35,651 bases of DNA, taken from Candidatus Woesearchaeota archaeon. Its GTDB lineage: Archaea > Nanobdellota > Nanobdellia > Woesearchaeales > SKGA01. Positions within the stretch are counted from its first letter, which is position 1, and every line of letters begins with the position of its first letter. A program made the position numbers and the translations under genes. Below the pieces are notes generated by a model. That model saw only the letters and a list, made by a program, of their open reading frames with translations. It did no database searches and was not told the origin of the DNA. Shown one piece after another: positions 1 to 33,577 of the stretch. Where the stretch lies: positions 1 through 35,651 of the forward strand of contig JAFGOT010000027.1 of assembly GCA_016926395.1 (NCBI GenBank). The letters run 5' to 3'.

Positions 1-1263
1 ACTATTGCTGATATTACTTATTTTCATTTTGATGATATAATCTCAAACATTCAAACAAAATCAAATTCTAATATTTTAACTAATCGTAAAACAAGAGGAA
101 AATTAAATGCGGCAATTTCTTGTAGTGCAAATTCTTTAAGATCTCTGCTTCAAAATTTTTCATTTGATCATCGTATGATGCCTGGTATTTATGCAGGTCT
201 TCCTTGGTTTTTTCAAATATGGAGTCGTGATGAATTAATTTCTCTTGGTGGCCTGATTTCTTTAGCAAAAGAGCAACATGATCATGAATTATTCTCAAAA
301 ATAAAATCTATTCTTGAGCGTCATATAAAAAGTGTTCTTCCAAATGGTGACTTGGATAATCGTTTTCCACGAAGTGAACTTGGTAGTGTTGATGCTTTGG
401 GTTGGCTTGGGAAAAGGATTCAAGATTTTTTGATTGCGTTAAAAGACGAAAAACTTCTTTATACTTTATTCTCTCCTGTTGAACTTGTTGGTTGGTCGCA
501 GATGCTAAAAGAAGCTCTAGAAAAATCAAAAAAACACAGACTTGTTGATGGTCTTTTCAAAAACGATTTTAATGAAACATGGATGGATACATCATATCAT
601 GATGATGGTAGGGTTGGTTTTAGAATTGAAATTCAAGCTCTTTATTATTCTCTTTATGATTCAATAATTTTTATCGAAAAACTTGTTAAGTCTCCTTACA
701 CAAATGATTTTGTTAATGAGCAAAAACAATTTGTAAAGTTAATAAGAGAAAATTTCATTGATACAAATTTTGGCGGATATTTAATTGATGGGAAAAATTT
801 TCAAGGTCACACTGATAGGTCTTATCGTCCAAATATTTTTTTAGCAGCATACTTGGCGCCAGATATATTGTCAAGAAAAGAATGGTTAACTGTTTTTGAT
901 GCTTATCTAAAAAAATTATATCTGCCATGGGGAGGTCTTAGCACGATAGGTCATGATAGTTCATTATATCAACCAACTTATACCGGTCAAGACAATAAAA
1001 GTTATCATCGAGGTGATTCTTGGTATTTCATAAATAATATTGCTGCAATTGTTCTTGATAAGTTTGGAAGAAAAAATTATGAAACTCAAGTTCGATCAAT
1101 TGAACATGCTAGTGCTAAAGAGTGTGTTGATTTAGGTTTCTTAGGTCATTTTAGTGAAGTTAGTTCTAGTAGTTTTCAAGAAGCACAGGGTAGTTTATCT
1201 CAAGCTTGGAGTGCAAGTACTTTCTTAGAATTAACTCTTTATCGTTACAGTGAAAACGACTAG
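1..1263 (+). CDS. Amylo-alpha-1,6-glucosidase / glycogen debranching enzyme family (GDE_C-like), 5'-truncated by window edge
   Basis: Frame is open from base 1 to TAG at 1261-1263 (ORF track starts at Met 175). Motifs GIYAGLPWFFQIWSRDE, SVDALGW, YRPN, SYHRGDSWYF and QAWSAS are typical of GDE_C (alpha/alpha)6 glucosidases. Confidence 0.85.
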   Translation, partial: TIADITYFHFDDIISNIQTKSNSNILTNRKTRGKLNAAISCSANSLRSLLQNFSFDHRMMPGIYAGLPWFFQIWSRDELISLGGLISLAKEQHDHELFSKIKSILERHIKSVLPNGDLDNRFPRSELGSVDALGWLGKRIQDFLIALKDEKLLYTLFSPVELVGWSQMLKEALEKSKKHRLVDGLFKNDFNETWMDTSYHDDGRVGFRIEIQALYYSLYDSIIFIEKLVKSPYTNDFVNEQKQFVKLIRENFIDTNFGGYLIDGKNFQGHTDRSYRPNIFLAAYLAPDILSRKEWLTVFDAYLKKLYLPWGGLSTIGHDSSLYQPTYTGQDNKSYHRGDSWYFINNIAAIVLDKFGRKNYETQVRSIEHASAKECVDLGFLGHFSEVSSSSFQEAQGSLSQAWSASTFLELTLYRYSEND

Positions 1264-1362
1264 TTTTCACTGTTCAACATGTTAGTGTTGTCACAATGAA
1301 AACGACTAGTTTTCGCTGCTCAAAAATGTTTATTTTTGTTGTGGTGAAAATGATTAGTTTAT
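1251..1362 (+). repeat. Degenerate triple tandem repeat (46-48 bp period) starting with the last codons and stop of the debranching-enzyme gene
   Basis: Units start at 1251 (tgaaaacgactagttttcactgttc), 1297 (tgaaaacgactagttttcgctgctc) and 1345 (tgaaaatgattagtttt). Each of the first two contains the inverted repeat GAAAAC-n5-GTTTTC. Confidence 0.8.
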
Positions 1363-2283: not shown

Positions 2284-3033
2284 ATGTCCAATAATGATTT
2301 TCAAAGCATCCGAACCGAATTAATCAAGAAAACCAAGTCTCAACTAGCTGATTCTGTAACTGAAGATATAATTATTATGCAGACTCTTGCTACTATTGAT
2401 GATTTATCATTATCTTTGAATAATGTGGCTACTCGTCTTCGAGAATGGGCTGCTTACACTGTTCCTGAATTGGAGCATTCTGTTTCTAATCATGAATCTT
2501 TTGCTAGGTTTTTAGTAACTAAATCTTATGATGAGATTCTTTCTGAGTTTGTTAAAGGACAAACCATGGGTGCTAGGTTATCTTCTGAAGATTATTCTGC
2601 TCTTGTTTCTTTTGCGACCAAAGTTCTTGAAATGTATGAGCTTAGAACTTCATTAACTGATTATCTTGAGTCTTCTTTACAAAAGTACACTCCTAATACT
2701 CTAGCTATCTGCGGTCCTACGATTGCTGCTAGGCTTTTATCAAGTGCAGGATCTTTAAGACGACTCGCTACTATTCCTGCTTCAACTATTCAACTTTACG
2801 GTGCTGAAAAGGCATTATTTAGACACCTAAGAAGCGGAGCTAAAAGTCCAAAATATGGTCACATTTTTAGTCACCCTCTTTTGCAAAATGCGGCTCGTAG
2901 TGAAGCTGGAAAGGTTGCGCGTGCCCTAGCTGACAAAATTGCAATGTGCGCTAAACTTGATTATTTTAAAGGGGATTTCCTAGGTGATAAATACTTGATT
3001 GCTCTTGAAGTCAAATTTGGGGGTAAAAAATGA
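2284..3033 (+). CDS. nop5: Nop5/Nop56-58 box C/D RNP protein (short form)
   Basis: Nop domain motifs PASTIQLYGAEKALFRHL, PKYGHIF and GKVARALADK. Stop overlaps the fibrillarin start. Confidence 0.95.
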   Translation: MSNNDFQSIRTELIKKTKSQLADSVTEDIIIMQTLATIDDLSLSLNNVATRLREWAAYTVPELEHSVSNHESFARFLVTKSYDEILSEFVKGQTMGARLSSEDYSALVSFATKVLEMYELRTSLTDYLESSLQKYTPNTLAICGPTIAARLLSSAGSLRRLATIPASTIQLYGAEKALFRHLRSGAKSPKYGHIFSHPLLQNAARSEAGKVARALADKIAMCAKLDYFKGDFLGDKYLIALEVKFGGKK

Positions 3034-3812
3034 AGCCAAGAAATAATTTTTCAAAGAAGCCTCAAAAGTCTTTTCAAAAAGACAAATCTAAATTTGATTC
3101 AAAACCGCAACGTTCTGAAAAGCAAAGTTCTCACGGGATGATGCCTCTTGGAAAATTTCCTAATGTTTTTTCCGAACGAAAGGGTCGTTTCACTAATTAT
3201 TTTACTAAAACTGAAGATGGTAGATCTTTTTTTGATGAAAAAATTGTGAAAATTGATGGTCAAAAGTATAGAAATGTTAATCCTGAACGAAGTAAGTTAT
3301 TTGCAGGTATTGCATCTGGTATTTCTCAGATTGGTTTCAAAGATGATAGTGTTGTTTTATATCTTGGCGCTAGTCATGGTTATACTGTTAGTTTTTTATC
3401 TGATATGATAATTAATGGCCAAATTTATGCAATGGATTTTGCTCCTCGAGTGGTTAGGGATTTAATTTTCTTATGCGAAGCAAAAACTAATATTGCTCCT
3501 TTTATGGCAGATGCTAACCAGACAGCAGCGTATAGTGAATTGCTTCCTGCTTCTGGTGTTGACGTTATTTTTATGGATATTGCTCAGAAAAATCAAGTTG
3601 AGATTTTTACTAAAAATTGTGATGCTTTCTTAAAGTCTGGCGGTTTTGGTCTTTTAGCACTTAAATCTAGAAGTGTTGATGTTACAAAAAAACCAAAAGA
3701 TATTTTCAAAATTGTTAGATCAGAACTTGAAAAAAAGTATGTTGTTGTCGATTATCGAGAACTTGATCCTTTTGAAGAAGATCATGCTTTGTTTGTAATT
3801 AAGAAAAAGTAA
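3030..3812 (+). CDS. flpA: Fibrillarin-like rRNA/tRNA 2'-O-methyltransferase
   Basis: Motifs RSKLFAGI, VLYLGASHGYTVSFLSD, DIAQKNQ and LKSRSVDVT. Coupled to nop5. Confidence 0.96.
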   Translation: MKPRNNFSKKPQKSFQKDKSKFDSKPQRSEKQSSHGMMPLGKFPNVFSERKGRFTNYFTKTEDGRSFFDEKIVKIDGQKYRNVNPERSKLFAGIASGISQIGFKDDSVVLYLGASHGYTVSFLSDMIINGQIYAMDFAPRVVRDLIFLCEAKTNIAPFMADANQTAAYSELLPASGVDVIFMDIAQKNQVEIFTKNCDAFLKSGGFGLLALKSRSVDVTKKPKDIFKIVRSELEKKYVVVDYRELDPFEEDHALFVIKKK

Positions 3813-3910
3813 TTTATTTGGTATTGCGTTAAACGCAATCCCTGGCGCTCGCCTATTGCAAGAATGGCGAAGATGATGATGCTTTGTTTGTAATTAAGAA
3901 GAAATAATTT
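3774..3910 (+). repeat. Direct repeat of fibrillarin 3' end (3774-3812 vs 3869-3907) separated by two hairpins
   Basis: 35/39 nt identical, EEDHALFVIKKK* vs EDDDALFVIKKK*. Hairpins are at 3823-3839 (attgcgt-taa-acgcaat) and 3849-3870. Confidence 0.9.
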
Positions 3911-4029
3911 CTTGTTTTTTTCTTATTATTTGTTTATCCTTTCTTTTTAGAAAGCTTTTTAAATGATTTTCACTGAATTTCTTACTATTAGTGTTATTAC
4001 TATAATAATTATAATTCCCTAAGGTGTGA

Positions 4030-7000
4030 TTGGTGAGGTTCATGAATAATAAGATTCTAATTTTTGCATTGTTGACAGTTCTATTTATTGGCTTAAGCTC
4101 AAGTTTTGTATCTGCAGCCGCGGCTGCTGATTGTTCGACCAGTCAAGCTTCGGATGAAAGCTTAAGCACTTCTAATGCTGCGAGTACAGGTCTTAAATTT
4201 GGATTTTATGGTGGTGTTTCCAATTTTTGGGGGACTGCTCGTCCGAGTTATTATTTAGATAGAATAAAGGACGCAACTGTTACATCTTCTGATATTTCTC
4301 AAGTTTTTAATTATTATCCTTCTACTCTTTATGGTTATGCATACAATACTTTGACTGGTGGTGTTCATTATGATTATGATTGTGAAATGGGTTATAGGGC
4401 AGGAACTTATATCTATGGTTATCCTGGAAAATTGACTGTTAAATTATGGTCTGATGGAACTGAAGGCGGCCGTTTACAAAGTACTTTTGATAAGCCTCAA
4501 GCTTTTGTAGGTGTCCAAGTTTATGAATTATATGATGGCGCGGGTTATGATCCTATATGGGGTTTAATGGGTTCAGTATCTTCTAACAATCCTGTTTCTG
4601 TAGGTCAGTTGTTGGCAAACCCTATTAGTAGTAGTCCTTTACACCTTTCAGGTGTTGGCGATCAAGGTTCTGTTTATGAGTATTTATCTTTGCCTCCTGG
4701 AGTTTATTATATTGCAGTAGCTGGTGGTCATAATAATCGTAATGAAGATTGGAATGATGACTATGAAACAGAGATATCCTTGTCTGGTACTTATAAGTCC
4801 TTTTCTCATTTACTTGAAGATGAGACTGACATAAAAAATAATCTTCCTTTAACTTATTTTAAATCATATCCTTCACTTTGTGAATTAGCTGGTGGTGCTC
4901 ACATAAAGAATACCGGTGTTTCAACATCTGATATAGTTAGTGGTGAAATTTATTGTTGTGGTGCTAGGAATGATGATGTTGGTAAATTTAATTATCAGTA
5001 TCGTTGTGATTATGTTGATGGAGAATATGTTTGGACTAATCTTTGTGAGTTGGATTATGACTCTCTTACTGGTGATAGTAAAACAAGAGCAAGTTCTTGT
5101 TTGGTCTGTGAAGCTGATTCTATAGATGGCGAGAATTATGCTGGTTATTGTATTGGTGAGGGTTTTGATGTTTACTGTGATAATTCTCAAACCAAATCTT
5201 GTTCTAATTTTGATGATGATCGTTCAAAGTGTTTGTTAGCTGGTTGTGGAACTTTCGTTCCTGGTACTCAATGTGAGTGTAGTGGTGTAGATTGTTCTTC
5301 AGGTGAAGTTTTTGTTGAACCAATTGGTAGTGCACCTGGTTCTGCTGGTTGTTACACTGCTTCCGAAATGCAGGCTACTTTTGGTGTTTCCGATTATTGT
5401 GATTCCGTTTGTGCTCATACGGACGGTACTGATTATCCTTCGGTGGTTATTGATTATACTGATGGTGATTGTGGCGGTACTAGTTCTTATACTTGTAATT
5501 TTGCGAATGACAATACTTGTCTTGCATTAGATTGTCGTCTAAGAGATGACGCGGCTAATTATTATTATTCTATTCCTTCTGGTTGTTATGAAAATACCTA
5601 TATACGAAATAACAAGCCAGAATGTTTTGCAGTTGGTTGTGGTTGGAAGTGTAGAACTTCTGATGGAAATTGTGATACTTCTATTGATTGTACTATTGGT
5701 AATCACTGCTCTGACGATCACGATCCTGATGAATTAGATTCAAGAACTTGTCATTCTGATGCTACAAAATGTATTGTGGGTTATTATGATGGTTACATTA
5801 ACGGAGGTTCGGCTTTTAGTTCAAATGATCATGTTGAAGTTGGTGTCGGCACCTATGTTTGTGCTGAAGACGAAACGGGTGTTGGAGTTTACAAACAGTG
5901 TGGTATTTATTTAGAACCTTATTCTTATGGTTCATGTACTTCTACTTCTGCTGAATTTACTTGTACTGGCACTCCTGATCCTCAGGTTTGTAAATCTAGT
6001 ACTCTTTATTGCTCTAATGAATGGATTGATGGTCCTAGAACTGCATCTTCTTGTACTAGTATTAATGGTAATTGTCATTACTCTGAGGGTCAGTGTTACG
6101 ATTCTGATGGTGGTTCTGGTGGTGGTGCTTACGCAGGTATTTTCAATGATGTATCTATTCCTTTAGTTTCAGGTTTTACTTTTGAGACTTGTCCGGAGGC
6201 TGGCACTCAATCTGTTTGTGAAGCTATGGGCTGTTCTTGGTCGCCTGCTACTTGTACTGGCACATATACTAAATCATGTAGTGGAACTCCTCCTTGTGCT
6301 TCTTGGTGTTATGCTGATCCTTCATTTACTTCTTGTACTGGTCTATCTTATGCTCAATGTACTACTGGTTGTACCCGTTCTTGTAAAGTAACTGGTTTTG
6401 GCTCTGCTGTTAATAAATATACTAATTCTAATTTAGCTCTTAGAGAATCTGCTTGTGACTGTGCAGGTGATGTTTGGGAAACTTGTTATATTGATTCTGA
6501 CGAAGATGGATTTCCTTCATCATCTCAAACTAATTTATGTGTTGGTTCTGATTATGTTGAAGGCGAGGCATTTGCTCCTTCTGCTGATCCTGATAATCTT
6601 TACTTTTGTGGATCATATACTGGTGTTTGGGATTGTGATGATAATGATGATTCAGTCTATCCTCTTCCTTATTATTTAGATAACGATGGTGATGGTTCTG
6701 GAGATTCTTCAATGGAAGATTTACTTTGTTCTCCTCCTTCTGGTTGGGTGGATGTTGGCGGGGATTGTGATGATGATGATCCTTGTTTGGTTCCTTGGAA
6801 TATTTGGTACTATGACGGTGATGATGATGGTTTTTACAATTCAACTGTAGATTCTACTGATAGCTGTACTCCCTTAACTAATTATGTAACTAATAGAGCA
6901 GAATGTTCAAGTGAGGATTTCTATGTTTCTTCACTTTTACCAGATTGTGATGATTCAATATCTAGTTGTACTTCTAATTGTAATACTGGTTATAGGGATG

Positions 7001-9795
7001 CTGATGAGGATGGTTATCCTCTTCAAAATGATAATATAACGCCTGGTTGTTCAAGTTCTGGTTATATTCTTGAAAGATCTGATGGTGCTTGGGATTGTGA
7101 TGATTCGCCTTCAACCGGTTCGGATATTTATCGTTTAGCTAATGTTTGTCCAGATAGTGATTCCGATGGAGTTTATGTTTGTGAATCTTGTGAAACTGAT
7201 GTTTGTGTTGGTGATTTTGTTTCTGACAACTCTAACTATGTTGGTTTTGACGAGTTAACTTATTCTGATTGTAATGATATTAATTCAGAAGATGACTGCG
7301 ATGATGGCAACATAACAATTTATCGTTTAGCAAACATGTGTCCTGATTTTGATGATGATACTCATTATGATTGTGATGCTTGTCAAACTGATGTTTGTGC
7401 TAATGATAATGTTCCTACATCTCATCCTGATTATATTGAATGGACGCAAACGCAATGTTTGGCTGCAGGAGAAACTGATTGTGATGATTCTCAAAGCGAT
7501 AGGTGGAGAGTTTCAACTGTTCACAAAGATGATGATTATGATGGTTATTATGATTGTGCTAATCCTTTAGTTGATCAATGTATTGGTTGTGATGATCCTA
7601 ATGATGGTTTTTGTAAAGATTCTTACATGCCTGTTGATTCTTATGGTGTTACTTACACTGATGATTATGCATCAACTTGTACTTATGACAACGCTATAAG
7701 TGATTGTAATGATAATGATGTTTTGCTTTATCATTTATGTTGTAATAATGCAAATAGTTATGAGTTCAAAAAATCAAGTCCAACTTATACTTTTGATTCT
7801 TCTAAAACTAACACTATTCTTTACAAAGTAAGAATGGATAATTATGATACTAGTTGGACAAATGGTGAACCTAGAATTGATGGTAACGATTGGCCTTTCA
7901 ATAATGTTGATTGGTCATTAGCTACATACACTTCTGATGGTAAGACTTTATTTGACAAAAGCATTTACGGATGTGCGGCTTCTAGTACTGCTAGTGTTTA
8001 TTATGATGTTGGTCCTGGAAACGTTGTTGTTGTTGAAAATAATGGTGGTGTGAATTTCATTTCTCATGATGGTTCTGCAAAGGACAGAGTAACTAAAGCA
8101 ACAAACACTTATTGTGATTCTAAAGGTTGTCCTTGGGTTGATTGTGACAACAATGCTGCCTCTGCATCTCAATGTGGTTATCCTTTCTTATTGGAAGGTA
8201 AGTCGTTGAAGTCTGGCTGGAATACTTTGAGTGATAATGGTTTATATAATCCTGATGACTCTGCTGAACGAGGTTTTGGTGGTTATACTGATTATGATGG
8301 TACTGCTTATGATGTGCGTCAAACAAGAAATGAATCTTGTGGTGATGATATGATTGCAGGTAGTTCTGAGTATGCAACTATTGGTTTCTGTGAGGCAAGT
8401 ACTGATTATAGAAGACTTTGTTGTGTAAGCCCTAACATGTATAACATGGATGGTATTTGTGTTGCTTACGATCAATGTCCTGATGTTATGGAATCTGCTC
8501 CTGTTTGGATTGATAGTTTGTCTCAAGCAGAATATGATTCTTACGTTGCAATTTTAGCTGTTTCTGGTGATGGTTACTGTTGTGATAATGAAGGTCCAAG
8601 TGTGGGAAAAGAATTATGTGTTGCTAGTGAAAAGGGTTGTTACATAAAAACAGCATCTCTAGCTGAAACTCCAATTCCTAAACCTGGTTATGTTCAAAAT
8701 TGGAATGATTGTCCTGCTGGTTCTTGTGCTCTTGAACTTTGTAGCTCTGCGACCAATTATTCTCTTTGTGAAAAATCAACTACTTGTGAATCCGAAGTGT
8801 ATAAGTTATACGTTCCTGGTATTACAAATCTAAAAGAGTGTCATCCAATTTCTGGTGGTTTATCTATTACTGCAGAGAAAGCTGCTTCTTATCCTTCGAT
8901 GCAAGCTGGTTGTGATGAATCCAGTTGTGAACGAGTTACTGAAACTATTTGTACTCTTGACACGTCTAGTAATTCATGTTATGCTCTTTGTAATGATGAT
9001 AAATCCGAATGCGAACTTGTTTGCGCTCAATCTGATTACACTTGTAGTAATGTTGAAACTTTAAGAAATTGTGAAGATCCATCTTGTGTTTATGATAATA
9101 CTAATCCTGTAATTTCATATAGATACAATGTTGATACAACACAATCCTTATCTTGTGAATCTGACTACTTTACTGAATGTAATGAGTTTGGTTGTGCTCC
9201 TCCAAAATATTGTGGTGGAATTCCTCCAGATGGAACTTTAGAGTATTTTGCAAACTGCGGTGCATATCCTCCTCTTTATACACATAATGTTGTTTGCGAT
9301 GAACACGTATCTTGTAGTAATCATGATTGTAATGAGTCTCAAGCATTAAACAGTGCTGACAATTTAGTTTGTCTTCCTGAAGTTACTGGTGCTTTAGATG
9401 TTGAGGGTAATAATTATCCAAAACTTGCAATGAATGATAACTTAGACACTCTTCAATGTTCTCCTGAGACGACAATAAAAGTTAAAGGTCAGCCTTTCTG
9501 TCCAGAAGGATTTGATTATGATGTGACTAACACCCGTTGTATTAAATCAACATATAATTGTGATTATGGTTATCGAGGAGCATTGGTTAATGGTTGTGAT
9601 AATTTAACTAGAGAAAATGATCCTTACTTAATGTATACTTCTGGTTGTTTCCAAGATTCTTCAGGCTTAGATATTGATTCAGTAAATGATTTGAATGCCA
9701 AGGCTTGTTGTCTAGATTATAGCATCGTTTCTGGTAGTGACATTTATGATGTTTACACCATTGAATCTGGTGAAGAATACATAAGAATCTATTAA
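4030..9795 (+). CDS. Giant (~1920 aa) secreted Cys/Asp/Gly-rich surface protein with repeated DxDxDG and DC(D/N)D putative metal-binding motifs
   Basis: N-terminal signal peptide (NNKILIFALLTVLFIGLSSSFVSA); start may be GTG 4033 or ATG 4042. PPC-like strand LSLPPGVYYIAVAG at ~4684-4726. Very Cys-rich thereafter. Repeats such as YYLDNDGDGSG...GDCDDDDP lie at ~6480-7720. Confidence 0.85.
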   Translation: MVRFMNNKILIFALLTVLFIGLSSSFVSAAAAADCSTSQASDESLSTSNAASTGLKFGFYGGVSNFWGTARPSYYLDRIKDATVTSSDISQVFNYYPSTLYGYAYNTLTGGVHYDYDCEMGYRAGTYIYGYPGKLTVKLWSDGTEGGRLQSTFDKPQAFVGVQVYELYDGAGYDPIWGLMGSVSSNNPVSVGQLLANPISSSPLHLSGVGDQGSVYEYLSLPPGVYYIAVAGGHNNRNEDWNDDYETEISLSGTYKSFSHLLEDETDIKNNLPLTYFKSYPSLCELAGGAHIKNTGVSTSDIVSGEIYCCGARNDDVGKFNYQYRCDYVDGEYVWTNLCELDYDSLTGDSKTRASSCLVCEADSIDGENYAGYCIGEGFDVYCDNSQTKSCSNFDDDRSKCLLAGCGTFVPGTQCECSGVDCSSGEVFVEPIGSAPGSAGCYTASEMQATFGVSDYCDSVCAHTDGTDYPSVVIDYTDGDCGGTSSYTCNFANDNTCLALDCRLRDDAANYYYSIPSGCYENTYIRNNKPECFAVGCGWKCRTSDGNCDTSIDCTIGNHCSDDHDPDELDSRTCHSDATKCIVGYYDGYINGGSAFSSNDHVEVGVGTYVCAEDETGVGVYKQCGIYLEPYSYGSCTSTSAEFTCTGTPDPQVCKSSTLYCSNEWIDGPRTASSCTSINGNCHYSEGQCYDSDGGSGGGAYAGIFNDVSIPLVSGFTFETCPEAGTQSVCEAMGCSWSPATCTGTYTKSCSGTPPCASWCYADPSFTSCTGLSYAQCTTGCTRSCKVTGFGSAVNKYTNSNLALRESACDCAGDVWETCYIDSDEDGFPSSSQTNLCVGSDYVEGEAFAPSADPDNLYFCGSYTGVWDCDDNDDSVYPLPYYLDNDGDGSGDSSMEDLLCSPPSGWVDVGGDCDDDDPCLVPWNIWYYDGDDDGFYNSTVDSTDSCTPLTNYVTNRAECSSEDFYVSSLLPDCDDSISSCTSNCNTGYRDADEDGYPLQNDNITPGCSSSGYILERSDGAWDCDDSPSTGSDIYRLANVCPDSDSDGVYVCESCETDVCVGDFVSDNSNYVGFDELTYSDCNDINSEDDCDDGNITIYRLANMCPDFDDDTHYDCDACQTDVCANDNVPTSHPDYIEWTQTQCLAAGETDCDDSQSDRWRVSTVHKDDDYDGYYDCANPLVDQCIGCDDPNDGFCKDSYMPVDSYGVTYTDDYASTCTYDNAISDCNDNDVLLYHLCCNNANSYEFKKSSPTYTFDSSKTNTILYKVRMDNYDTSWTNGEPRIDGNDWPFNNVDWSLATYTSDGKTLFDKSIYGCAASSTASVYYDVGPGNVVVVENNGGVNFISHDGSAKDRVTKATNTYCDSKGCPWVDCDNNAASASQCGYPFLLEGKSLKSGWNTLSDNGLYNPDDSAERGFGGYTDYDGTAYDVRQTRNESCGDDMIAGSSEYATIGFCEASTDYRRLCCVSPNMYNMDGICVAYDQCPDVMESAPVWIDSLSQAEYDSYVAILAVSGDGYCCDNEGPSVGKELCVASEKGCYIKTASLAETPIPKPGYVQNWNDCPAGSCALELCSSATNYSLCEKSTTCESEVYKLYVPGITNLKECHPISGGLSITAEKAASYPSMQAGCDESSCERVTETICTLDTSSNSCYALCNDDKSECELVCAQSDYTCSNVETLRNCEDPSCVYDNTNPVISYRYNVDTTQSLSCESDYFTECNEFGCAPPKYCGGIPPDGTLEYFANCGAYPPLYTHNVVCDEHVSCSNHDCNESQALNSADNLVCLPEVTGALDVEGNNYPKLAMNDNLDTLQCSPETTIKVKGQPFCPEGFDYDVTNTRCIKSTYNCDYGYRGALVNGCDNLTRENDPYLMYTSGCFQDSSGLDIDSVNDLNAKACCLDYSIVSGSDIYDVYTIESGEEYIRIY

Positions 9796-9818
9796 GGTTC
9801 TTTTTTTATTTTATTTTT

Positions 9819-12800
9819 TTATTCTTTAAGAGTTCCTAAACCCGTGTGAGTTTCATCTTTAGTTCTAGAAGTCATCGTTTTGTATATTATATTAACATTA
9901 GCAAAATCTCTAATCATATCATTAATTGTTATATCTGATGCTAATGCACCGTTCATGAAACTCTTATAGTTGCTTGTCTCTGACATATTTCCGAATCTAC
10001 CAAGTAGTTCTCTCATTCCAATTGCATAATGAATGTCTGATGCGGGTTGTCCTTGAGGTACACAAGTAAATGTTATGTCTGCTGTCGAATTAAATCCTAA
10101 GTTATTCGAGAATCCTCCACTATGTGAATCTGTAATCCCTGCTTTGTCGGTTACTGACTCTGCATTGATTCCCATTTCATCTCTTACTGACTCCATGTAT
10201 TCAGGATCGTTTAAATCAACTTGTGGTACTCCAATTGAAGCTCGCGGTGTATCAACAACGATTATATTATATGGTAAACCAGTGTGTGTTTGGATAAAGT
10301 TACCTAATTCTACTGGCCAGTCTGGATTATCAGAATTTGGAGTGTTATATACTCGCAGTTCATTCCAGTAAGACCAAGGCGCATTATATGTGCTTCCTTG
10401 TAATGATCTTAAGTCGTCTTTATTTATTGTTAGAACAGAATCATTAACTGGGTATGTCCAGCTTTTTTGAATCATGTTTGGATTATAGATTAAAACAGTG
10501 TCTTTGAAATTAGTTAGTTTGTCTTTAACTGGAACAGTTCCCATTTTTATGTTGTATGTTCCACCTACTGGGATGTTATCATGACTAAAATAATTATCAA
10601 CATTAGCTCCTTGAACTACAAAGTCAATGTCGCCAGTTATTCCAACAGGGAATGGTCCTAATCTGTACTCTCCATTAACTGTTGTTGTAGAGTAAACTGT
10701 TCCATCGGTTTCTGTGAATATAACTTCTAGCTCTCCAGCATCCCCATTGTCGCTTGTTTTTCTTTCTCCTTTCAAAACGAATTCTTGTTCAAGAGATGTT
10801 AAAGTTGGTTCTGTAAATACTGTTTGATTTGCACTTAATGATTTAGTCCATGTAGCAGGATAAATAGGTATGTTACCCTCTATTGTTTTTGGTATTACTT
10901 TTAGAGTGTATGTTGTATTTCCTGTTTCATTTACTAAAACTGTATCTGTAATAATTTGCCCGTCTAAAACATTAAATATTGTATCTGCAACACCAAGAGT
11001 GTTATTCGTAAATATGAAATCTGCTGTTGTTCCACTTTGCATTAATGGATCATTAAATCTAGTTCTTATCACTCCTTTGTATTCAGTTGGAGGAACTTCT
11101 TCTTTTACTAATTCATAAACTAATTCATTTGCCACTCCTTCGTTTATTGATATTGGTATAGAATCGCTTTTTATGTATCCTGCTCTCTCCATTAATAATT
11201 TTAAATCCAGTGTGTGTCCGGGCATTGTTGTTTGTAGGTTTGTGATTGTATCTTGTAGACTGTTCCCACTCATTAACAACTGCCCATTAAGGAATGCTTT
11301 TACATCAACAGAATCAAGTGCAATTCCACTTGCGCTATCTTTTCCTACAACACCTAATTCGTATAAGTATGTTAGAAGTTGGTTTTCTGTTATTCTGTTT
11401 TCTATTGTTTCTGCTGTTAGGTTTGTTTCTAGTCTGTAATCTGAGTGTTCATCTAGGTTTGATTTTAGTATTATGTTTTTATTTGTGTTTACGTCTTGGA
11501 ATGTTAGTGTGTCAAGAGAATTGTTTCCGGTGTTGCCAGATCCTATTAGTGTTGAATCGCTACTTAGTACTAGCCAATTAACGCCTGGTAAATTGTTTCC
11601 TTCTCCATCTTGAGAATTTATTACTAATTCGTATAAGTATGTTAGAAGTTGGTTTTCTGTTATTCTGTTTTCTATTGTTTCTGCTGTTAGGTTTGTTTCT
11701 AGTCTGTAGTCTGAATGTTCGTTTAGATTTGATTTTAGTATTATGTTTTTGTTTGCGTTTAAGTCTTGGAATAATAATGTGTCAAGAGAATTGCTTCCTG
11801 TATTTCCTTGTCCAATTAACACTGAATCGCTACTTAACACTAACCAATTAACGCCTGGTAAATTGTTTCCTTCTCCGTCTTGAGAATTAATAACTAAAGT
11901 ATACTCTTTTGGTTGTGGATTATTTATTTCTGTGATTTGATATGTTTGATTGAAGTTTCCGTTTGTCAAATTTATTGAATCTAATTTATCTTCTAAATCT
12001 ATTCCACTAAATCTTAAAAAATGTTTTAATGTATCTGGTGTTATTTCATTAAATGCATCAATACTTATGTTTTCAAAACTTACTTGTCCTTGTTCATTTG
12101 AAAATAATTTTAGTGTATCTGTACTATTTTCTTTCCACATTTCTGCTAGTACGTTGTTTAGAGGATTTCCTGTTTGTTCGCTTACTATTGTGGCGTAAAG
12201 GTTAGCGAAAAATTCTTGCTGTTTTGGAGTTAGATTGTGATAATTTTTTATGATGTCTCCTTGGCTTACTTTCCAAAGAGTATCTCTTGCCATTTCTAAA
12301 TAATCGTTTGCAGGGATTTCAACTGCGAAATCAACACTATCTGGTATTAATTTATTTCCTTCTATTGGTTTGATTGCAATATCAGTTATTTGAGCATCTC
12401 CGTTATTGTCTGTGGTGATATTAAATGAATATTGTCCGTCTAAAGAATTAACATTCATGTTTGTATTTTTTTGTATGTTGCCATATTTGTCTTCTAGATT
12501 AAAGAACATGTTCGCAAAGAATTCTGGCCATTTTTGCATTTCAAAATCAAAGTAGTTGGTGTTTTCTAAATCTACTGACTTAACAATCTCAAGAGGTTGA
12601 TATTCGTCAACTTCTTCTGCATCATCTAATCTGAATATGAAATTATTATTTTCTGCCATTCGAGCGCTTTTTTGTCCATTGTTGTTTTCTGATGATTTAT
12701 CAAATTCAATTGTTTGCATTCCATAACTTGGAAGCATTCCTGGAATAATTTTTTTTGCTGGATGAACTCCATCACTGAATAGAAGAACTTGCTCTGGAAC

Positions 12801-13223
12801 ATTCGGTATGTTCATTGTTGCTTGAAATTCATTACTTCCCACTCTTTGAAATTGTGTTCCTGAAATAGTTTGTCCAGCCATATTGTATAAATGGCCATTT
12901 TCAATATTTTGGTTGGTTGTAACGTTGATTCGCATTTGACCTCCTTCATATGTGATGGTCATTTTATCGCCTGAGAATCCAGGAATGTCATTAATTCCTG
13001 TAACTATGTCTTTTAATTCGTAAAAGCCCGAAAAGTCTGTTAATGTGTCTTTTCGTTTAGTTGTGTCATTTTGAGAAATTGCTTCGACAATAATATTTTC
13101 AAGAGCTTGTCCTGAGTTTTTATCTGTGACGTACCCTTGTATATCCTGGCCGTTTGCAAATAATGGTGCCAAAGCTAATGATCCGATTGTGAGTGTTTTC
13201 CAGAATGCTTTTTTCAGGCCCAT
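9819..13223 (-). CDS. Large (1134 aa) secreted multi-beta-sandwich protein with carboxypeptidase-regulatory-like domains and a T9SS-CTD-like segment
   Basis: Signal peptide ends ...PLFANG|Q. IQGYVTDKNSGQALENIIV...TDFSGFYEL resembles CarboxypepD_reg. VTGIND...LYNMAGQTI resembles a T9SS type A sorting domain. Contains an internal 90-aa duplication. Confidence 0.75.
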   Translation of the reverse strand: MGLKKAFWKTLTIGSLALAPLFANGQDIQGYVTDKNSGQALENIIVEAISQNDTTKRKDTLTDFSGFYELKDIVTGINDIPGFSGDKMTITYEGGQMRINVTTNQNIENGHLYNMAGQTISGTQFQRVGSNEFQATMNIPNVPEQVLLFSDGVHPAKKIIPGMLPSYGMQTIEFDKSSENNNGQKSARMAENNNFIFRLDDAEEVDEYQPLEIVKSVDLENTNYFDFEMQKWPEFFANMFFNLEDKYGNIQKNTNMNVNSLDGQYSFNITTDNNGDAQITDIAIKPIEGNKLIPDSVDFAVEIPANDYLEMARDTLWKVSQGDIIKNYHNLTPKQQEFFANLYATIVSEQTGNPLNNVLAEMWKENSTDTLKLFSNEQGQVSFENISIDAFNEITPDTLKHFLRFSGIDLEDKLDSINLTNGNFNQTYQITEINNPQPKEYTLVINSQDGEGNNLPGVNWLVLSSDSVLIGQGNTGSNSLDTLLFQDLNANKNIILKSNLNEHSDYRLETNLTAETIENRITENQLLTYLYELVINSQDGEGNNLPGVNWLVLSSDSTLIGSGNTGNNSLDTLTFQDVNTNKNIILKSNLDEHSDYRLETNLTAETIENRITENQLLTYLYELGVVGKDSASGIALDSVDVKAFLNGQLLMSGNSLQDTITNLQTTMPGHTLDLKLLMERAGYIKSDSIPISINEGVANELVYELVKEEVPPTEYKGVIRTRFNDPLMQSGTTADFIFTNNTLGVADTIFNVLDGQIITDTVLVNETGNTTYTLKVIPKTIEGNIPIYPATWTKSLSANQTVFTEPTLTSLEQEFVLKGERKTSDNGDAGELEVIFTETDGTVYSTTTVNGEYRLGPFPVGITGDIDFVVQGANVDNYFSHDNIPVGGTYNIKMGTVPVKDKLTNFKDTVLIYNPNMIQKSWTYPVNDSVLTINKDDLRSLQGSTYNAPWSYWNELRVYNTPNSDNPDWPVELGNFIQTHTGLPYNIIVVDTPRASIGVPQVDLNDPEYMESVRDEMGINAESVTDKAGITDSHSGGFSNNLGFNSTADITFTCVPQGQPASDIHYAIGMRELLGRFGNMSETSNYKSFMNGALASDITINDMIRDFANVNIIYKTMTSRTKDETHTGLGTLKE
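11358..11897 (-). repeat. In-frame tandem duplication, 2 x 270 bp (90 aa)
   Basis: LVINSQDGEGNNLPGVNWLVLSSDS...ENQLLTYLYE occurs twice. 11355-11438 is identical to 11625-11708, and substitutions cluster in the middle of the unit. Confidence 0.95.
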
Positions 13224-13248
13224 ATTGTTATCTTTTAACCTATTTGTA

Positions 13249-13256
13249 TTTATAAA
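13249..13256 (-). promoter_or_regulatory. TATA box (TTTATAAA) for the 1134-aa gene
   Basis: Lies about 26 nt upstream of the ATG at 13223, so the transcript is probably leaderless. Confidence 0.6.
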
Positions 13257-13291
13257 TGTTTCGATTTATATACTACTGTAAAGTGACAAAT

Positions 13292-14518
13292 TTATTTGCT
13301 TTCGTATATTTTGTCGAAAATAACGTTTGATAAGCTGTCTAGAATGATTGGTGTTAGATATTTTTCAGTTAATTGTTTGGTTTGGTTTTTATTTTCTACT
13401 GTTGTGTATATTACTCTTCCTTGAGCCATTGCATTGTTATTCTCATCAAATTTTTTAGTGTATTTGTAATCAATAAAATTATTTTCTTGTTTGTATGGAA
13501 TAACATCTCCACCTTTTATTTTTAAATCTTGATTTCTTTTAATTTTATTTGCCTTTAACATCATCAAATATATTGCTTTGTCTGATTCATGAATTAATGT
13601 TCCTTTGTTTACTCTTATATCGTAACTTTTCAATGCAAAGTCTATGATGACGACTATTTTGTTTTCATACGTATAAATTCCTGGATTGTTTAAATCTTCT
13701 AGTGTGATAATTTCTAAGTTTGTTTTATTATTTCTTTTTTCTTTTTCTTCTTTTTTGATGTTATATGCTTCTAACCGTTTTTTTGTTAATTCAAAGTATC
13801 CCTCTTGTATTGGGCTTTCTGTTAATTTTGCATATTCTTGGGATTGATTTACAAATTCGAAAATTTCTTCAAAATCTTTGTTGTCTTTTTCTATCATTTC
13901 CTCAAGTCTTTCTTCAAATTTATCTTGGCCTTTCCCAACTGTTTTTTTAAGATCTTCTTCACATTCTTTATCGATAATTAATGCTTTTGTTTTATTTTTA
14001 TAACTTAGAACTAATTTTTCTTTACTCTGTTCTTTGCTTTGTGCGTATTTTAAAGCAGAATAAAGAAACAAATCTATTTGCTTTAGATTTTCTTCATCTA
14101 AATCTCTAATTTGTTTATTATATTCTTTTTTGAATGTTTTTTCTGATTTTAAAATTTCTGAGAAAACATCGTTTCTCTTTGTTTCTAATTTGTTTATCTC
14201 TTCTAGTTTTTTGTTAAAGAAAATCTTTCCATTATCCGACCATTCTTCATCTCGATCTTTTCTTACTAATTCTTTTGCTTTTTCAAAGTCTTGCATATCG
14301 ATATATTTTTGATATTTTAAAGATGCTTCTGTCTCCAAAATTTTCCTATCGAGTCTAATTCTCTCAATTGACAAGTTCATTGTTTTAGCTTTTGCTTTTA
14401 GTTCATTAACTTGTTCTTGGCTAACTCTGTTTTCAGGAATTATTGGTTGAAATGCTTGTTTTGTAGTGCTACAGCTAACTGTTGCGGCTATTATTGCTGC
14501 TAAAGCTAACTTTTTCAT
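13292..14518 (-). CDS. Putative lipoprotein, Lys/Glu-rich coiled-coil, function unknown
   Basis: MKKLALAAIIAATVSC is a short signal with lipobox Cys, followed by a long charged helical region. Confidence 0.75.
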   Translation of the reverse strand: MKKLALAAIIAATVSCSTTKQAFQPIIPENRVSQEQVNELKAKAKTMNLSIERIRLDRKILETEASLKYQKYIDMQDFEKAKELVRKDRDEEWSDNGKIFFNKKLEEINKLETKRNDVFSEILKSEKTFKKEYNKQIRDLDEENLKQIDLFLYSALKYAQSKEQSKEKLVLSYKNKTKALIIDKECEEDLKKTVGKGQDKFEERLEEMIEKDNKDFEEIFEFVNQSQEYAKLTESPIQEGYFELTKKRLEAYNIKKEEKEKRNNKTNLEIITLEDLNNPGIYTYENKIVVIIDFALKSYDIRVNKGTLIHESDKAIYLMMLKANKIKRNQDLKIKGGDVIPYKQENNFIDYKYTKKFDENNNAMAQGRVIYTTVENKNQTKQLTEKYLTPIILDSLSNVIFDKIYESK

Positions 14519-14550
14519 AAAAAAGAGAAATGAAGATTATCTTAATAATC

Positions 14551-14610
14551 TTACGGCTTATACAAAAACTCATCAATCAAATCTTTTGCTTTCTCACGTC
14601 TTGCTTGGTG
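14551..14610 (-). pseudogene. Isolated diverged copy of the trpS 3' end (19 codons plus stop)
   Basis: Translates HQARREKAKDLIDEFLYKP*, versus the TrpRS tail HQKRRKEAENQIEDFLYKPE*. The ungapped match is 11/19 identical. Confidence 0.85.
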
Positions 14611-14641
14611 TCTTCCGTTTAGGAAGGCTCAAAAAATAAGT

Positions 14642-15763
14642 TTATTCTGGTTTATACAGAAAATCTTCTATTTGATTTTCTGCTTCTTTCCTTCTTTTTT
14701 GATGTTCAGCTAAGAACTCATTAATTTTGTCAATTAACATTGCTTTTACTTCGCCAGATAAGAGTTCGCCTTTTCGATATTTATCATACATCTCTTGTAG
14801 TTTTTCATCGTCATCTTCAAAGTATTGCATCCATTGACAAGCAACATCGATATCTGGATTTCCGCCTAGTTTTCTATGTTCTTCGACTGTATCTTGTCCG
14901 CCACTAAATGCATATTTGTTAATTTTTTTCTTAACTGTTTTTGGATCATCTGTTAGAAGAATATCTTTTCCTTCTCCACCTTTATCTGTCGATTGTTTTC
15001 CTTCTCCGCCTGTCATTGGCGTCATAAATTTAGCATGTAGTATTGCTGGTTTTTTATGTCCTAATTTTTCTATAACATCTCGACTAATTCTAAAGTGGGG
15101 ATCTTGATCAACACCAAGTGGAATGAGACACGGTCTGTTTTCATTTCTTAGTACGTTTGGTAAGAATGCTGGAACTGTTTGCATTGCAGTATAGAAGATG
15201 CTTCCTATATTGTTGGAATCCGTGAATCCAAATGCGCCTTTAACTTGTGATGTTGTTATTTTTTTTGCTACTTTGATTGCTTCTGGATACATAATTCCTG
15301 CATGTTTTGTATCAATCAAAAAATGTGTTTTTTTTGGGTCAAAACCAAGTGCAATCACATCTAACATGTTCTCGTATGTCCAGTCTTGAATTTCTTCATA
15401 ACTTTTATCTTGTTTGAATAAGAATTTTTCATCATCTGTGAACTGAAACCATAGGTCCACATCAAAAACATCTTGTAACCATTTGACAAATCTCCAAGTT
15501 CCAACATGACCTAAATGTATTGGTCCTGATGGTCCTCGACCTGTATATAAAAAGAATTTATTTCCTTTCTTGTATTCGTCAAGGCACCATTTCAGGTCTC
15601 TGTGTGCAAAGAATATTCCCCTACGTAATTGAGGGTGTAGTTCTCCTGCAAGTTCTTTGATTTGTTTAAGATCCTCTTCTGTGAGTTTCTTTATACCAAA
15701 TTCTAAAACTAGTCTTTCATAATCGACTGCTCCTTCGACCTCGTATGGATTTACTGTACTCAT
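14642..15763 (-). CDS. trpS: Tryptophan--tRNA ligase (archaeal/eukaryote type)
   Basis: Motifs YTGRGPSGPIHLGH (HIGH-type), GVDQDPHFR and KINKYAFSGGQ. The KMSKS position reads KQSTD. Confidence 0.96.
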   Translation of the reverse strand: MSTVNPYEVEGAVDYERLVLEFGIKKLTEEDLKQIKELAGELHPQLRRGIFFAHRDLKWCLDEYKKGNKFFLYTGRGPSGPIHLGHVGTWRFVKWLQDVFDVDLWFQFTDDEKFLFKQDKSYEEIQDWTYENMLDVIALGFDPKKTHFLIDTKHAGIMYPEAIKVAKKITTSQVKGAFGFTDSNNIGSIFYTAMQTVPAFLPNVLRNENRPCLIPLGVDQDPHFRISRDVIEKLGHKKPAILHAKFMTPMTGGEGKQSTDKGGEGKDILLTDDPKTVKKKINKYAFSGGQDTVEEHRKLGGNPDIDVACQWMQYFEDDDEKLQEMYDKYRKGELLSGEVKAMLIDKINEFLAEHQKRRKEAENQIEDFLYKPE

Positions 15764-32990: not shown

Positions 32991-33482
32991 TTAGTTATTA
33001 TTTTTTGGATCGGAATATTTCATCCAATGTTCTTGTATTCTTTTCATTACAAATTCAAGTTTTTCCTTGATTTCTTCGTTCCAAAATTTCAATCCTTCAT
33101 CAATGAATGGACCTTGAGCTTGCATGTTTTTTGTAATTCCAATAACATTATTTTTGCTAACGTATGCCATCATTTTATTCATTAAAAGATTAAGATCGTT
33201 TTTCTCTTCATCACTAAATGCTTGATTTTCAGTCATGTTAACTATACTGCTAGGGTTTGGCATAAGTATTGAATGAAGGTGATTGTACCATGAAAAATAA
33301 GTATTAACTATTCTTGCGCATAATTGTCTGTCGTATCTGTTGCTAATAAAACCCGTTCCTAATGCATCATCTTTTAGAAAAAATACTTTTTCTAATTCTT
33401 CAAAATTAGATTCAAATTTTAACTCTTCCTTTAGTTTAGAAAATGCTTTGTCTAGTTCTTCATACACTTCTTCATTGCTCAT
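32991..33482 (-). CDS. Hypothetical protein (163 aa, helical)
   Basis: Clean ORF with SD-like AAGGCG, convergent with the DUF2156 gene. No family recognised. Confidence 0.75.
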   Translation of the reverse strand: MSNEEVYEELDKAFSKLKEELKFESNFEELEKVFFLKDDALGTGFISNRYDRQLCARIVNTYFSWYNHLHSILMPNPSSIVNMTENQAFSDEEKNDLNLLMNKMMAYVSKNNVIGITKNMQAQGPFIDEGLKFWNEEIKEKLEFVMKRIQEHWMKYSDPKNNN

Positions 33483-33559
33483 TTGTATCGCCTTATTTTT
33501 TTAGAAAAATAAAAAATAAAAAATAAACTGCTTTTAGATTAACTGTTTGCAGTTCTCAA

Positions 33560-33577
33560 AAGAATCTAAAGATTCTT
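33560..33577 (-). terminator. Hairpin overlapping the rrp42 stop codon, followed by a second hairpin and a T-rich tract
   Basis: AAGAATC-TTTA-GATTCTT includes the TAG. Then aactg-caaa-cagtt and TTTATTTTTTATTTTTT on the coding strand. Confidence 0.45.

What the first reader, a model, noticed from the sequence alone, without database searches (positions are those of the whole stretch)
3774..14704. Candidate exchangeable surface-protein cassette bracketed by diverged echoes of the flanking core genes
Three large secreted or surface proteins (1921 aa, 1134 aa, 408-aa lipoprotein) lie between two convergent housekeeping genes, flpA (+) and trpS (-). On each side, just inside the gene's stop, there is a short spacer with a hairpin and then a second, diverged copy of that gene's final codons and stop (3869-3907 and 14551-14610). 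No integrase or transposase is present. The inferred model is a replacement-type island swapped between related strains using conserved gene ends as anchors, with homology-facilitated illegitimate recombination at hairpins leaving the donor's or resident's gene tail as a scar. This would give an integrase-free route for surface or host-attachment variation in a DPANN symbiont. On the coding strands both adjacent hairpins contain TAAACG (gcgtTAAACGc; ttccTAAACGg), which may be chance. I cannot tell whether this has been described.
Basis: partly seen in the sequence, partly recalled or inferred. Interest (0 to 1): 0.8.

Follow-up and report, generated by a model that had tools for sequence, protein, structure and literature searches.

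The report
Gene-end echoes, not a swappable cassette
Both duplicated gene ends are real, but they are two unrelated events of a kind scattered through this tiny archaeal genome (one a small hairpin insert that duplicated the fibrillarin gene's end, the other the left-over end of a second tryptophanyl-tRNA synthetase allele), and they do not mark the borders of an exchangeable surface-protein island.

Summary
Observation confirmed. A second copy of the flpA end lies at 3869-3913 (40/45 nt). A second trpS end lies at 14551-14610, possibly extending to 14628. Both exceed every permuted control.

Interpretation mostly fails.
1. About 14 of 890 genes in this 1-Mb genome carry such echoes, and a third sits in this window at 1244-1323.
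2. The flpA spacer is a 50-nt, two-hairpin, gene-less insert. Its conserved 3' core recurs at another gene of this genome and in five other MAGs. In 8 of 13 loci the core directly abuts a 17-79-nt repeat of the upstream target, which can be a protein-gene end, a tRNA end or intergenic DNA. The flpA echo is therefore a long target duplication.
3. The trpS echo has no such insert. It is a recoded tail as diverged from the resident tail as tails of different species, and neutral decay is rejected (P about 5e-5). It is a scar of a second trpS allele.
4. flpA and trpS are never neighbours in 12 genus genomes, and trpS has moved in this genome.
5. The 1921-aa gene is a positional orthologue in G003 and lies close to flpA in G012.
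6. The variable slot runs from flpA to a phosphoglucomutase gene at 21.3 kb, so the trpS echo lies inside it.

The enzyme is unknown. Earlier notes of this scan describe the same insert class elsewhere in this genome.

The parts
3030..3812 (+). fibrillarin gene flpA, last gene of the conserved Nop5-flpA pair
   Evidence: Pfam Fibrillarin, E 8e-63. Nop5-flpA is conserved in all related loci examined.
3774..3818 (+). X: upstream copy of the duplicated target (last 12 codons, stop, 6 nt)
   Evidence: Direct repeat with 3869-3913, 40/45 nt.
3819..3868 (+). 50-nt family-B mini-insert: hairpin 3823-3839 plus conserved 3' core 3846-3868
   Evidence: The core recurs at C38:7538-7613 of the same genome and in 10 loci of 5 other MAGs. 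In 8 of 13 loci it directly abuts a repeat of the upstream target. All 12 distinct copies have a differently spelled hairpin 2-8 nt before the core. No Rfam family matches.
3869..3913 (+). X': downstream copy (the flpA echo), now non-coding
   Evidence: It carries Asp in place of a His that is present in nearly all relatives' tails.
4030..9795 (+). 1921-aa Cys-rich secreted giant protein; positional orthologue in relatives
   Evidence: Signal-peptide-like N-terminus and 137 Cys. The C-terminal 500 aa are 30-36% identical to giant ORFs directly after flpA in G003 and about 1.2 kb from flpA in G012.
9819..13223 (-). 1134-aa secreted protein, lineage-specific
   Evidence: Pfam CarboxypepD_reg at residues 28-76. 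No homologue found in 17 family genomes or in 149 genomes of the order.
13292..14518 (-). 408-aa lipoprotein-like gene
   Evidence: Lipobox-like N-terminus. Only 25-29% identical hits in 3 genus genomes, at unrelated places.
14519..14550 (-). 6-bp hairpin and T-run directly after the echo's stop; looks like the original 3' end of the displaced trpS allele and lies just upstream of the 408-aa gene
14551..14628 (-). trpS echo: recoded last 19 (perhaps 25) codons plus stop of a second trpS allele
   Evidence: 38/57 nt identical to the resident tail and 42/57 to the G001 tail. Between-species mean is 35.2/57. Six codons differ synonymously. Neutral-decay simulation gives P = 5e-5.
14629..14641 (-). 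13-nt T-rich spacer after the trpS stop. If the echo is counted only from the HQ codons, the spacer is 31 nt (14611-14641) and holds the hairpin at 14612-14626.
14642..15763 (-). trpS, relocated in this genome
   Evidence: Pfam tRNA-synt_1b. It has three other gene contexts in the genus. The commonest context corresponds to C15:22.4-23.1 kb of this genome, which now holds a 159-aa ORF that I read as flavodoxin-like from its translation, without a domain search.
21271..22608 (-). phosphoglucomutase/phosphomannomutase gene, the real right-hand border of the variable slot
   Evidence: Pfam PGM_PMM I-IV. Its homologue is directly convergent with flpA in G011 and closes the slot in G003.
1244..1323 (+). 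third gene-end duplication in the window: 34-nt repeat (30/34) holding the GDE_C stop and a hairpin, 12-nt spacer

Best explanation
Two independent gene-end events lie in a variable region. They are not the two borders of one cassette.

(1) Left side. A 50-nt gene-less insert (variable hairpin plus conserved 3' core, 'family B') entered 6 nt after the flpA stop. The 45 nt before that point were duplicated. flpA therefore stayed intact, and the original end became the non-coding echo. The insert belongs to a superfamily of double-hairpin mini-inserts of these DPANN archaea. They are flanked by long target duplications of variable length (17-86 nt). I infer that insertion happens between widely staggered cuts. 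I also infer that copies are seen mainly at gene and tRNA ends because insertions elsewhere in a roughly 86% coding genome are lethal. The enzyme is not identified.

(2) Right side. The trpS echo is the last 19-25 codons, stop and terminator of a different trpS allele. That allele evolved as a coding sequence in another lineage. It was displaced when the present trpS, or its 3' part, was joined illegitimately about 13 nt after its own stop. The allele origin is shown. The direction and mechanism of the replacement are inferred.

(3) The genes in between belong to a larger variable slot between flpA and a phosphoglucomutase gene. That slot holds a fast-evolving but positionally conserved giant surface protein, two lineage-specific secreted proteins, and relocated housekeeping genes including trpS.
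For: Genome-wide scan:
- About 14 of 885 ORFs have tail echoes above every permuted control.

Class 1, near-identical X-insert-X':
- flpA X = 45 nt; C38a 86 nt (85/86); C17 67; C29 79; C19 56; C40 35; C38b 30.
- The inserts share conserved 3' cores in families A, B and C.
- The family-B core was found in 10 loci of 5 other MAGs. It directly abuts repeats of protein-gene ends (L060, L062), a tRNA 3' end (L058), a tRNA 5' end (L056) and intergenic DNA (L065).
- At C19:24351-26306 X stops 7 nt before the stop codon, the insert supplies a new stop, and X' continues into a longer original tail. This shows that X' is the original continuation.
- The flpA end is hit repeatedly in the genus. G005 has a family-C insert with a 21/21 duplication. 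G013 and G006 have hairpins with short echoes. The closest relative (L147, 82% nt) has none.

Class 2, recoded echoes 7-31 nt behind the stop:
- Members are trpS, C2:35307-36500, C22:15115-16008 and C10. Neutral decay is rejected at P <= 2e-4.
- The trpS echo is as far from its own tail as tails of different species are from each other, and it is nearest to the G001 tail.

Synteny.
Against: - No enzyme was found. In this 82.5%-complete genome I found no reverse transcriptase, TnpB, Cas1, Y1 or serine recombinase, only 4-5 tyrosine recombinases. No recombinase lies within 4 kb of family-B copies in other MAGs.
- Five of 13 family-B loci show no flanking repeat.
- No true empty site was available in a near-identical strain. 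The nearest relative is only 82% identical in flpA.
- The flpA tail is so conserved between species (up to 83% nt) that the 89% identity of its echo does not by itself exclude a foreign origin.
- For trpS I cannot tell which tail is native.
- No reads were available to exclude misassembly.
Confidence: 0.6

Rival explanations
1. The 3.9-14.6 kb block is a replacement island imported from a related strain. Homology in the flpA and trpS ends served as anchor, the joints at the hairpins were illegitimate, and both echoes are donor or resident tails.
For: The trpS echo is a genuine second-allele tail. The slot downstream of flpA differs between relatives, and two cargo genes are lineage-specific. 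The conserved flpA tail cannot exclude a donor origin for its echo.
Against: The flpA spacer is a member of an insert family that makes the same architecture at unrelated genes and tRNAs. flpA followed by the giant gene is ancestral. trpS is not a conserved neighbour anywhere in the genus and lies inside the variable slot. A third echo in the window (1244-1323) and about 11 elsewhere have no island beside them. There is no GC anomaly.
Confidence: 0.1
2. Both echoes are attL/attR-type remnants of tyrosine-recombinase integrative elements. Such elements target gene 3' ends and carry a replacement end, as e14 does at icd. Here they would be reduced to miniature, gene-less derivatives (CIME-like) that are moved in trans.
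For: The genome has 4-5 tyrosine recombinases. G003 has one inside the flpA-PGM slot. Recoded replacement tails, as at trpS, are typical of such elements (established knowledge). tRNA ends are also hit.
Against: The same core family sits at several different genes with different 30-86-nt repeats. A site-specific attP cannot explain that. No recombinase lies next to any copy. The repeat lengths are highly variable.
Confidence: 0.15
3. Assembly artefact. Strain mixtures in the metagenome produced false tandem copies of gene ends.
For: The genome is a 40-contig MAG, and no reads could be inspected.
Against: The same architecture, with the same conserved cores, occurs in independent assemblies from other studies. 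The spacers are unique sequence. The link between the left and right parts of the contig is matched by G003 and G011, where flpA and PGM share one contig.
Confidence: 0.04
4. The echoes are kept by selection, for example as spare or alternative C-termini reached by RNA splicing or ribosome bypass, or as 3'-UTR structure.
For: Recoded echoes keep the amino-acid sequence and the stop codon.
Against: The echoes are out of frame with their gene (offsets 95 and 94 nt). The flpA echo has lost a near-invariant His. No relative has a trpS echo. No Rfam family matches and no exceptional fold was found.
Confidence: 0.05

Closest known systems
Insertion with long (and variable) target duplication, described for restriction-modification genes in bacteria (Nobusato et al. 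2000 as cited in, and extended by, Furuta et al. 2010, PMC2853133)
   Same: Direct repeats of tens of bases flank the insert. They often overlap the 3' end of a gene or a tRNA. No transposase or integrase lies in the insert, and the mechanism is unknown.
   Different: Here the insert is a 22-84-nt non-coding double hairpin with a conserved 3' core, present in many copies per genome, in archaea. The bacterial cases are kilobase inserts that carry genes.
Integrative elements that target the 3' end of a protein gene and bring a replacement end (e14 at icd), and their gene-less derivatives (CIMEs); from established knowledge
   Same: The gene end is duplicated and one copy is recoded by synonymous changes, as at trpS. 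tRNA ends are also targets.
   Different: The two tail copies lie 13-95 nt apart with no element body and no integrase. One core family is found at many different targets.
Homology-facilitated illegitimate recombination (de Vries and Wackernagel 2002; from established knowledge)
   Same: It could produce the trpS arrangement: a complete incoming gene joined illegitimately inside the resident gene's end.
   Different: Neither the anchor nor the donor has been observed. It does not explain the family-B insert at flpA.
Replacement-type flexible genomic islands for surface structures (concept of Rodriguez-Valera and co-workers; from established knowledge)
   Same: A slot between conserved genes holds different, fast-evolving surface-protein genes in related genomes. 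The slot here is flpA to PGM: empty in G011, five genes in G003, seven genes here.
   Different: The comparison is between species of a genus, not strains. The content includes relocated housekeeping genes. The echoes are not the slot's borders.
MITEs and IS200/IS605-derived hairpin elements (PATEs)
   Same: Small, gene-less, multi-copy and hairpin-bearing, with a sharply defined end.
   Different: There are no terminal inverted repeats. The target duplication is long and variable instead of short or absent. No Y1 transposase or TnpB was found in the genome.

Membership tests
   flpA and trpS are on different contigs in all 12 genus genomes that have both. trpS has three other contexts.
   True for a different slot, flpA to PGM: empty in G011, other genes in G003. 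The giant gene at the left edge is a positional orthologue. No strain-level data.
Insertion with long target duplication | Direct repeats longer than 30 bp flank the insert and correspond to one copy at the uninterrupted site | tested here: inconclusive
   A 45-nt repeat (40/45) flanks the 50-nt insert. The nearest relative, L147, has a single flpA end and no insert, but it is only 82% identical. At C19 the downstream copy continues the original reading frame.
Insertion with long target duplication | No mobility gene inside the insert | tested here: met
   The inserts are 22-84 nt and non-coding.
Integrase-driven element at a gene 3' end (attL/attR, e14 type, CIME) | A tyrosine or serine recombinase lies in or beside the element | tested here: not met
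   None on contig C33. None within 4 kb of family-B copies in other MAGs.
Integrase-driven element at a gene 3' end (attL/attR, e14 type, CIME) | One element family uses one specific attachment sequence | tested here: not met
   Family B sits at flpA, at another gene, at tRNA ends and in intergenic DNA. Family A sits at four different genes. Each copy has its own repeat.
Integrase-driven element at a gene 3' end (attL/attR, e14 type, CIME) | The replacement gene end differs mainly by synonymous or conservative changes | tested here: met
   Met for trpS only: 6 synonymous codon differences, and neutral decay is rejected at P = 5e-5.
MITE / IS200-IS605 PATE | Terminal inverted repeats with a short fixed duplication (MITE), or no duplication plus a Y1 transposase in the genome (PATE) | tested here: not met
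   Duplications are 17-86 nt and variable. No Y1_Tnp or TnpB-type match over cut-off.
Diversity-generating retroelement (template/variable repeat at a gene's 3' end) | Reverse transcriptase nearby and adenine-specific mismatches between the repeats | tested here: not met
   No RVT_1 match in the genome. The mismatches are A>T, C>G, A>G and G>A.
Known RNA family (Rfam 15) | Match at or above the gathering score | tested here: not met
   The only hit in the window is tRNA-Pro. Nothing below E 0.39 at either spacer.

The most novel reading that the evidence does not exclude
Gene-end echoes in these DPANN genomes may come from an undescribed insertion chemistry, with cuts staggered by tens of bases at hairpin and core modules and no known transposase. 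The recoded class, including trpS, would then record frequent replacement of gene 3' ends between diverged lineages. Once present, an echo could serve as a safe homology anchor that lets neighbouring accessory surface-protein genes be exchanged without touching the essential gene.
Probability: 0.12. Interest if true: 0.8.

Novelty: new variant of a known kind. Interest (0 to 1): 0.5.

Why it matters
The island-swap idea would have given DPANN symbionts an integrase-free way to vary their attachment surface, but the evidence does not support it for this locus. Three things remain of interest.
1. There is a little-known class of tiny hairpin inserts with unusually long, variable target duplications. 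They pepper 1-Mb archaeal genomes and preserve essential genes by duplicating their ends.
2. A second class of recoded tail remnants shows that 3' ends of housekeeping genes, here trpS, are replaced between diverged lineages.
3. There is a concrete variable slot, flpA to PGM, that holds giant Cys-rich and orphan secreted proteins.

For annotation, such echoes should not be read as island borders or att sites without checking for the insert families.

Tried and rejected
- DGR template/variable repeat: no reverse transcriptase, and the mismatches are not adenine-specific.
- C/D-box sRNA or another known RNA in the spacers: no Rfam match.
- tRNA-derived or tRNA-primed element: the cores show no meaningful similarity or complementarity to the genome's 23 tRNAs.
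- Viral or plasmid parent of the cores: family B is absent from IMG/VR. The 70 hits of a 17-nt family-A pattern there are chance matches that lack the rest of the core.
- Donor lineage for the trpS echo: back-translated patterns of the echo tail found nothing in 185,579 species genomes.
- A trpS remnant at the place where G001 and G003 keep trpS (window 33483-33565), or a scar at the trpS 5' side: none found.
- att-like repeats around the recombinase in G003's slot: only a 13-nt match, E 0.059.
- A single-donor test from the two echo divergences: uninformative, because the flpA tail is highly conserved between species.
- Enrichment of echoes near contig ends or at convergent gene pairs: none.
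- GC anomaly of the interval: none.
- A shared TAAACG motif family: not supported.
- A fuzzy-regex scan timed out and was replaced by BLAST.

Full report
WHAT IS THERE

The window is contig C33 of a 1.02-Mb, 40-contig, 32% GC genome that is 82.5% complete. Record titles of related MAGs and earlier notes of this scan place it among DPANN archaea of the Nanoarchaeota/Woesearchaeota type. I did not test the taxonomy myself.

Pfam confirms Nop5 (2284-3033), fibrillarin (3030-3812, +) and a class I Trp/Tyr-type synthetase (14642-15763, -). Three ORFs of 1921, 1134 and 408 aa fill the interval. All three start with signal-peptide-like segments. The 408-aa one has a lipobox-like Cys, and the 1921-aa one has 137 Cys. 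No recombinase lies on this contig.

THE ECHOES ARE REAL

The segment 3774-3818 recurs at 3869-3913 with 40/45 identical bases. The last 19 codons of trpS recur, out of frame, at 14554-14610 and are followed by a stop. Here 38/57 bases and 11/19 residues are identical. A three-residue motif that relatives have just upstream suggests the copy reaches 14628.

I scanned 885 crude ORFs, comparing the last 75 nt of each with the next 300 nt. The null was about 2,650 permuted pairs, whose scores never exceeded DNA 32 or protein 47. flpA scores 58/49 and trpS 25/65.

ECHOES ARE A GENOME-WIDE FEATURE

About 14 genes pass the same thresholds. A repeat search finds a third case in this very window, at the end of the GDE_C gene (1244-1323, 30/34, 12-nt spacer). 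The echoes fall into two classes.

Class 1:
- It has near-identical copies X and X' (30-86 nt) around a 22-84-nt non-coding insert.
- The 3' part of the insert is conserved in a few families.
- The flpA spacer belongs to family B, with a second copy at C38:7538-7613.
- A scan of one genome per species found the family-B core in 10 more loci of five other MAGs.
- In eight of the 13 loci the base after the core starts a 17-79-nt repeat of the sequence lying just before the insert.
- The targets are protein-gene ends (L060, L062), a tRNA 3' end (L058), a tRNA 5' end (L056) and intergenic DNA (L065). Five loci have no detectable repeat.
- All 12 distinct copies carry a hairpin 2-8 nt before the core, each spelled differently. 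The architecture is kept while the stem sequence is free.
- At C19:24351-26306 X ends 7 nt before the stop codon, the insert supplies a new stop, and X' runs on into a longer original tail. The downstream copy is therefore the original continuation and the insert entered between the copies.
- X usually ends 0-6 nt after the stop codon.

The flpA end is hit repeatedly in the genus:
- G005 has a family-C insert with a perfect 21-nt duplication.
- G013 has a hairpin, a short echo and a family-B copy.
- G006 has a hairpin with the same 11-nt centre as here, plus a short echo.
- The nearest relative found (L147, flpA 82% nt) has a single end and no insert.

Class 2:
- It includes trpS, C2:35307-36500, C22:15115-16008 and C10:11815-12864.
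- The echo starts 7-31 nt after the stop, no conserved core is present, and the copy is recoded.
- For trpS, six codons differ synonymously. In 20,000 simulations of neutral decay with the same number of substitutions, only 5e-5 kept an open frame with an equal or better protein score.
- Over the same 57 nt, tails of different species of the genus share on average 35.2 bases (maximum 46). The echo shares 38 with the resident tail and 42 with the tail of G001.
- The echo is therefore the end of another trpS allele that evolved under coding constraint. It is not a decayed local duplicate.
- It is followed by its own small hairpin and T-run (14519-14550).
- Which tail is native, and whether the gene or the downstream DNA was the incoming part, cannot be decided. 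No scar is seen at the trpS 5' side.

THE ISLAND MODEL TESTED

flpA and trpS lie on different contigs in all 12 genus genomes that have both. trpS has three other contexts in the genus:
- In G004, G006, G007, G011 and G012 it lies between homologues of C15:21.0-22.5 kb and C15:23.1-23.5 kb.
- In G001 and G003 it lies between homologues of window genes 32991-33482 and 33566-34345.
- In G002, G005, G008 and G009 it lies beside homologues of C22:33-34 kb.

In this genome the C15 slot holds a 159-aa ORF that I read as flavodoxin-like from its translation, without a domain search. So trpS has moved and is not a conserved anchor.

On the left, G003 has GDE_C, eIF5A, Nop5 and flpA followed directly by a 1947-aa ORF. 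Its C-terminal 500 residues are 30-35% identical to the 1921-aa protein. G012 has a 1292-aa homologue about 1.2 kb from flpA. G013 starts a signal-peptide ORF after flpA at a contig end and has the giant's C-terminus at another contig end. The giant gene is thus a fast-evolving positional orthologue, not recent cargo.

Synteny with G003 resumes at the phosphoglucomutase gene (21271-22608). In G011 flpA and that gene are directly convergent. The variable slot is therefore flpA to PGM. It has no genes in G011. In G003 it has five, including a tyrosine recombinase 76% identical to C30:1664-2410. Here it has seven: the giant, the 1134-aa and 408-aa proteins, trpS, copA, a DsbD/HMA protein and asnB. 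The trpS echo lies inside this slot.

The 1134-aa protein has no homologue in 17 family genomes or in 149 genomes of the order. The 408-aa protein has only weak hits elsewhere. Beyond the genus, nothing from the slot follows flpA in 32 metagenome loci.

The interval has no GC anomaly. Echo loci are not nearer contig ends (p=0.62) and are not enriched at convergent pairs.

MECHANISM

What is shown:
- The X-insert-X' architecture.
- The sharp 3' core junction.
- The variable hairpin.
- The variety of targets.
- The recurrence in independent assemblies.

What is inferred: insertion occurs between cuts staggered by tens of bases, and survivorship at gene ends explains the distribution, because the genome is about 86% coding with a median 32-nt spacer.

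The enzyme is unknown. I found no reverse transcriptase, TnpB, Cas1, Y1 or serine recombinase, and the only GIY-YIG domain lies in one 531-aa ORF. There are 4-5 tyrosine recombinases, none next to an insert. A site-specific attP cannot explain one core family at many different targets.

For trpS the simplest reading is an illegitimate joint just after the stop of an incoming or relocated allele, which left the resident end behind.

COMPARISON WITH WHAT IS KNOWN

The nearest described phenomenon is insertion with long target duplication. It is known for restriction-modification genes in bacteria, where 46-420-bp repeats often overlap gene or tRNA ends, and its mechanism is unknown (PMC2853133). 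The present inserts differ in being tiny, non-coding, multi-copy and archaeal. Replacement ends at integrated elements of the e14/icd type resemble the trpS echo, but here there is no element body. I found no paper describing this class.

Earlier notes of this scan on other pieces of the same genome describe the same insert class at other genes and tRNAs. My scan and my family-B survey were made independently and agree with them.

VERDICT

The cassette interpretation is not supported, apart from the reading of the trpS echo as a recombination scar and the variability of the region. Confidence in the composite explanation is 0.6.

Noticed in passing
window 1244-1323: A third gene-end duplication. 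A 34-nt unit holding the GDE_C stop codon and a 10-bp hairpin is repeated (30/34) after a 12-nt spacer.
   Followed up: partly
G000 C15:22533-23012 versus window 14642-15763: trpS has left the position it holds in five genus genomes. That slot now carries a 159-aa ORF that I read as flavodoxin-like from its translation, without a domain search. trpS sits 18 kb from the place where G001 and G003 keep it.
   Followed up: partly
L066 (G003:C2) 13696-14510, and G000 C30:522-6427: The flpA-PGM slot of G003 holds a tyrosine recombinase 76% identical to C30:1664-2410. It appears to be interrupted by six copies of an 8-nt tandem repeat (L066:14337-14400). G000 has three recombinase-like genes within 6 kb on C30.
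   Followed up: partly
G000 C19:24351-26306 (-) and about 140 nt downstream: A family-A insert landed 7 nt before the stop. The gene now ends in the insert, and the echo preserves a longer original C-terminus.
   Followed up: yes
L057 (CAZFEG010000073.1) about 1850-2000 on the reverse strand: Two to three tandem units, each made of a short target, a hairpin and a family-B core. This suggests stacked or amplified insertions.
   Followed up: no
window 4030-9795 and L066:3276-9119: The giant secreted proteins are built of repeated Cys/Asp-rich modules (137 Cys here; internal 192-nt repeats at 7126-7416). Only the C-terminal quarter is conserved between species.
   Followed up: no
window 9819-13223: The 1134-aa secreted protein has no detectable homologue in 149 genomes from 142 genera of the order. 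Only a CarboxypepD_reg domain at its N-terminus is recognisable.
   Followed up: partly
G000 C2:35307-36500 and C22:15115-16008: Two more recoded tail echoes (57% and 48% nt identity, 9 synonymous codon differences each) lie directly behind stop codons. In both, a short hairpin's right arm is the start of the echo.
   Followed up: partly
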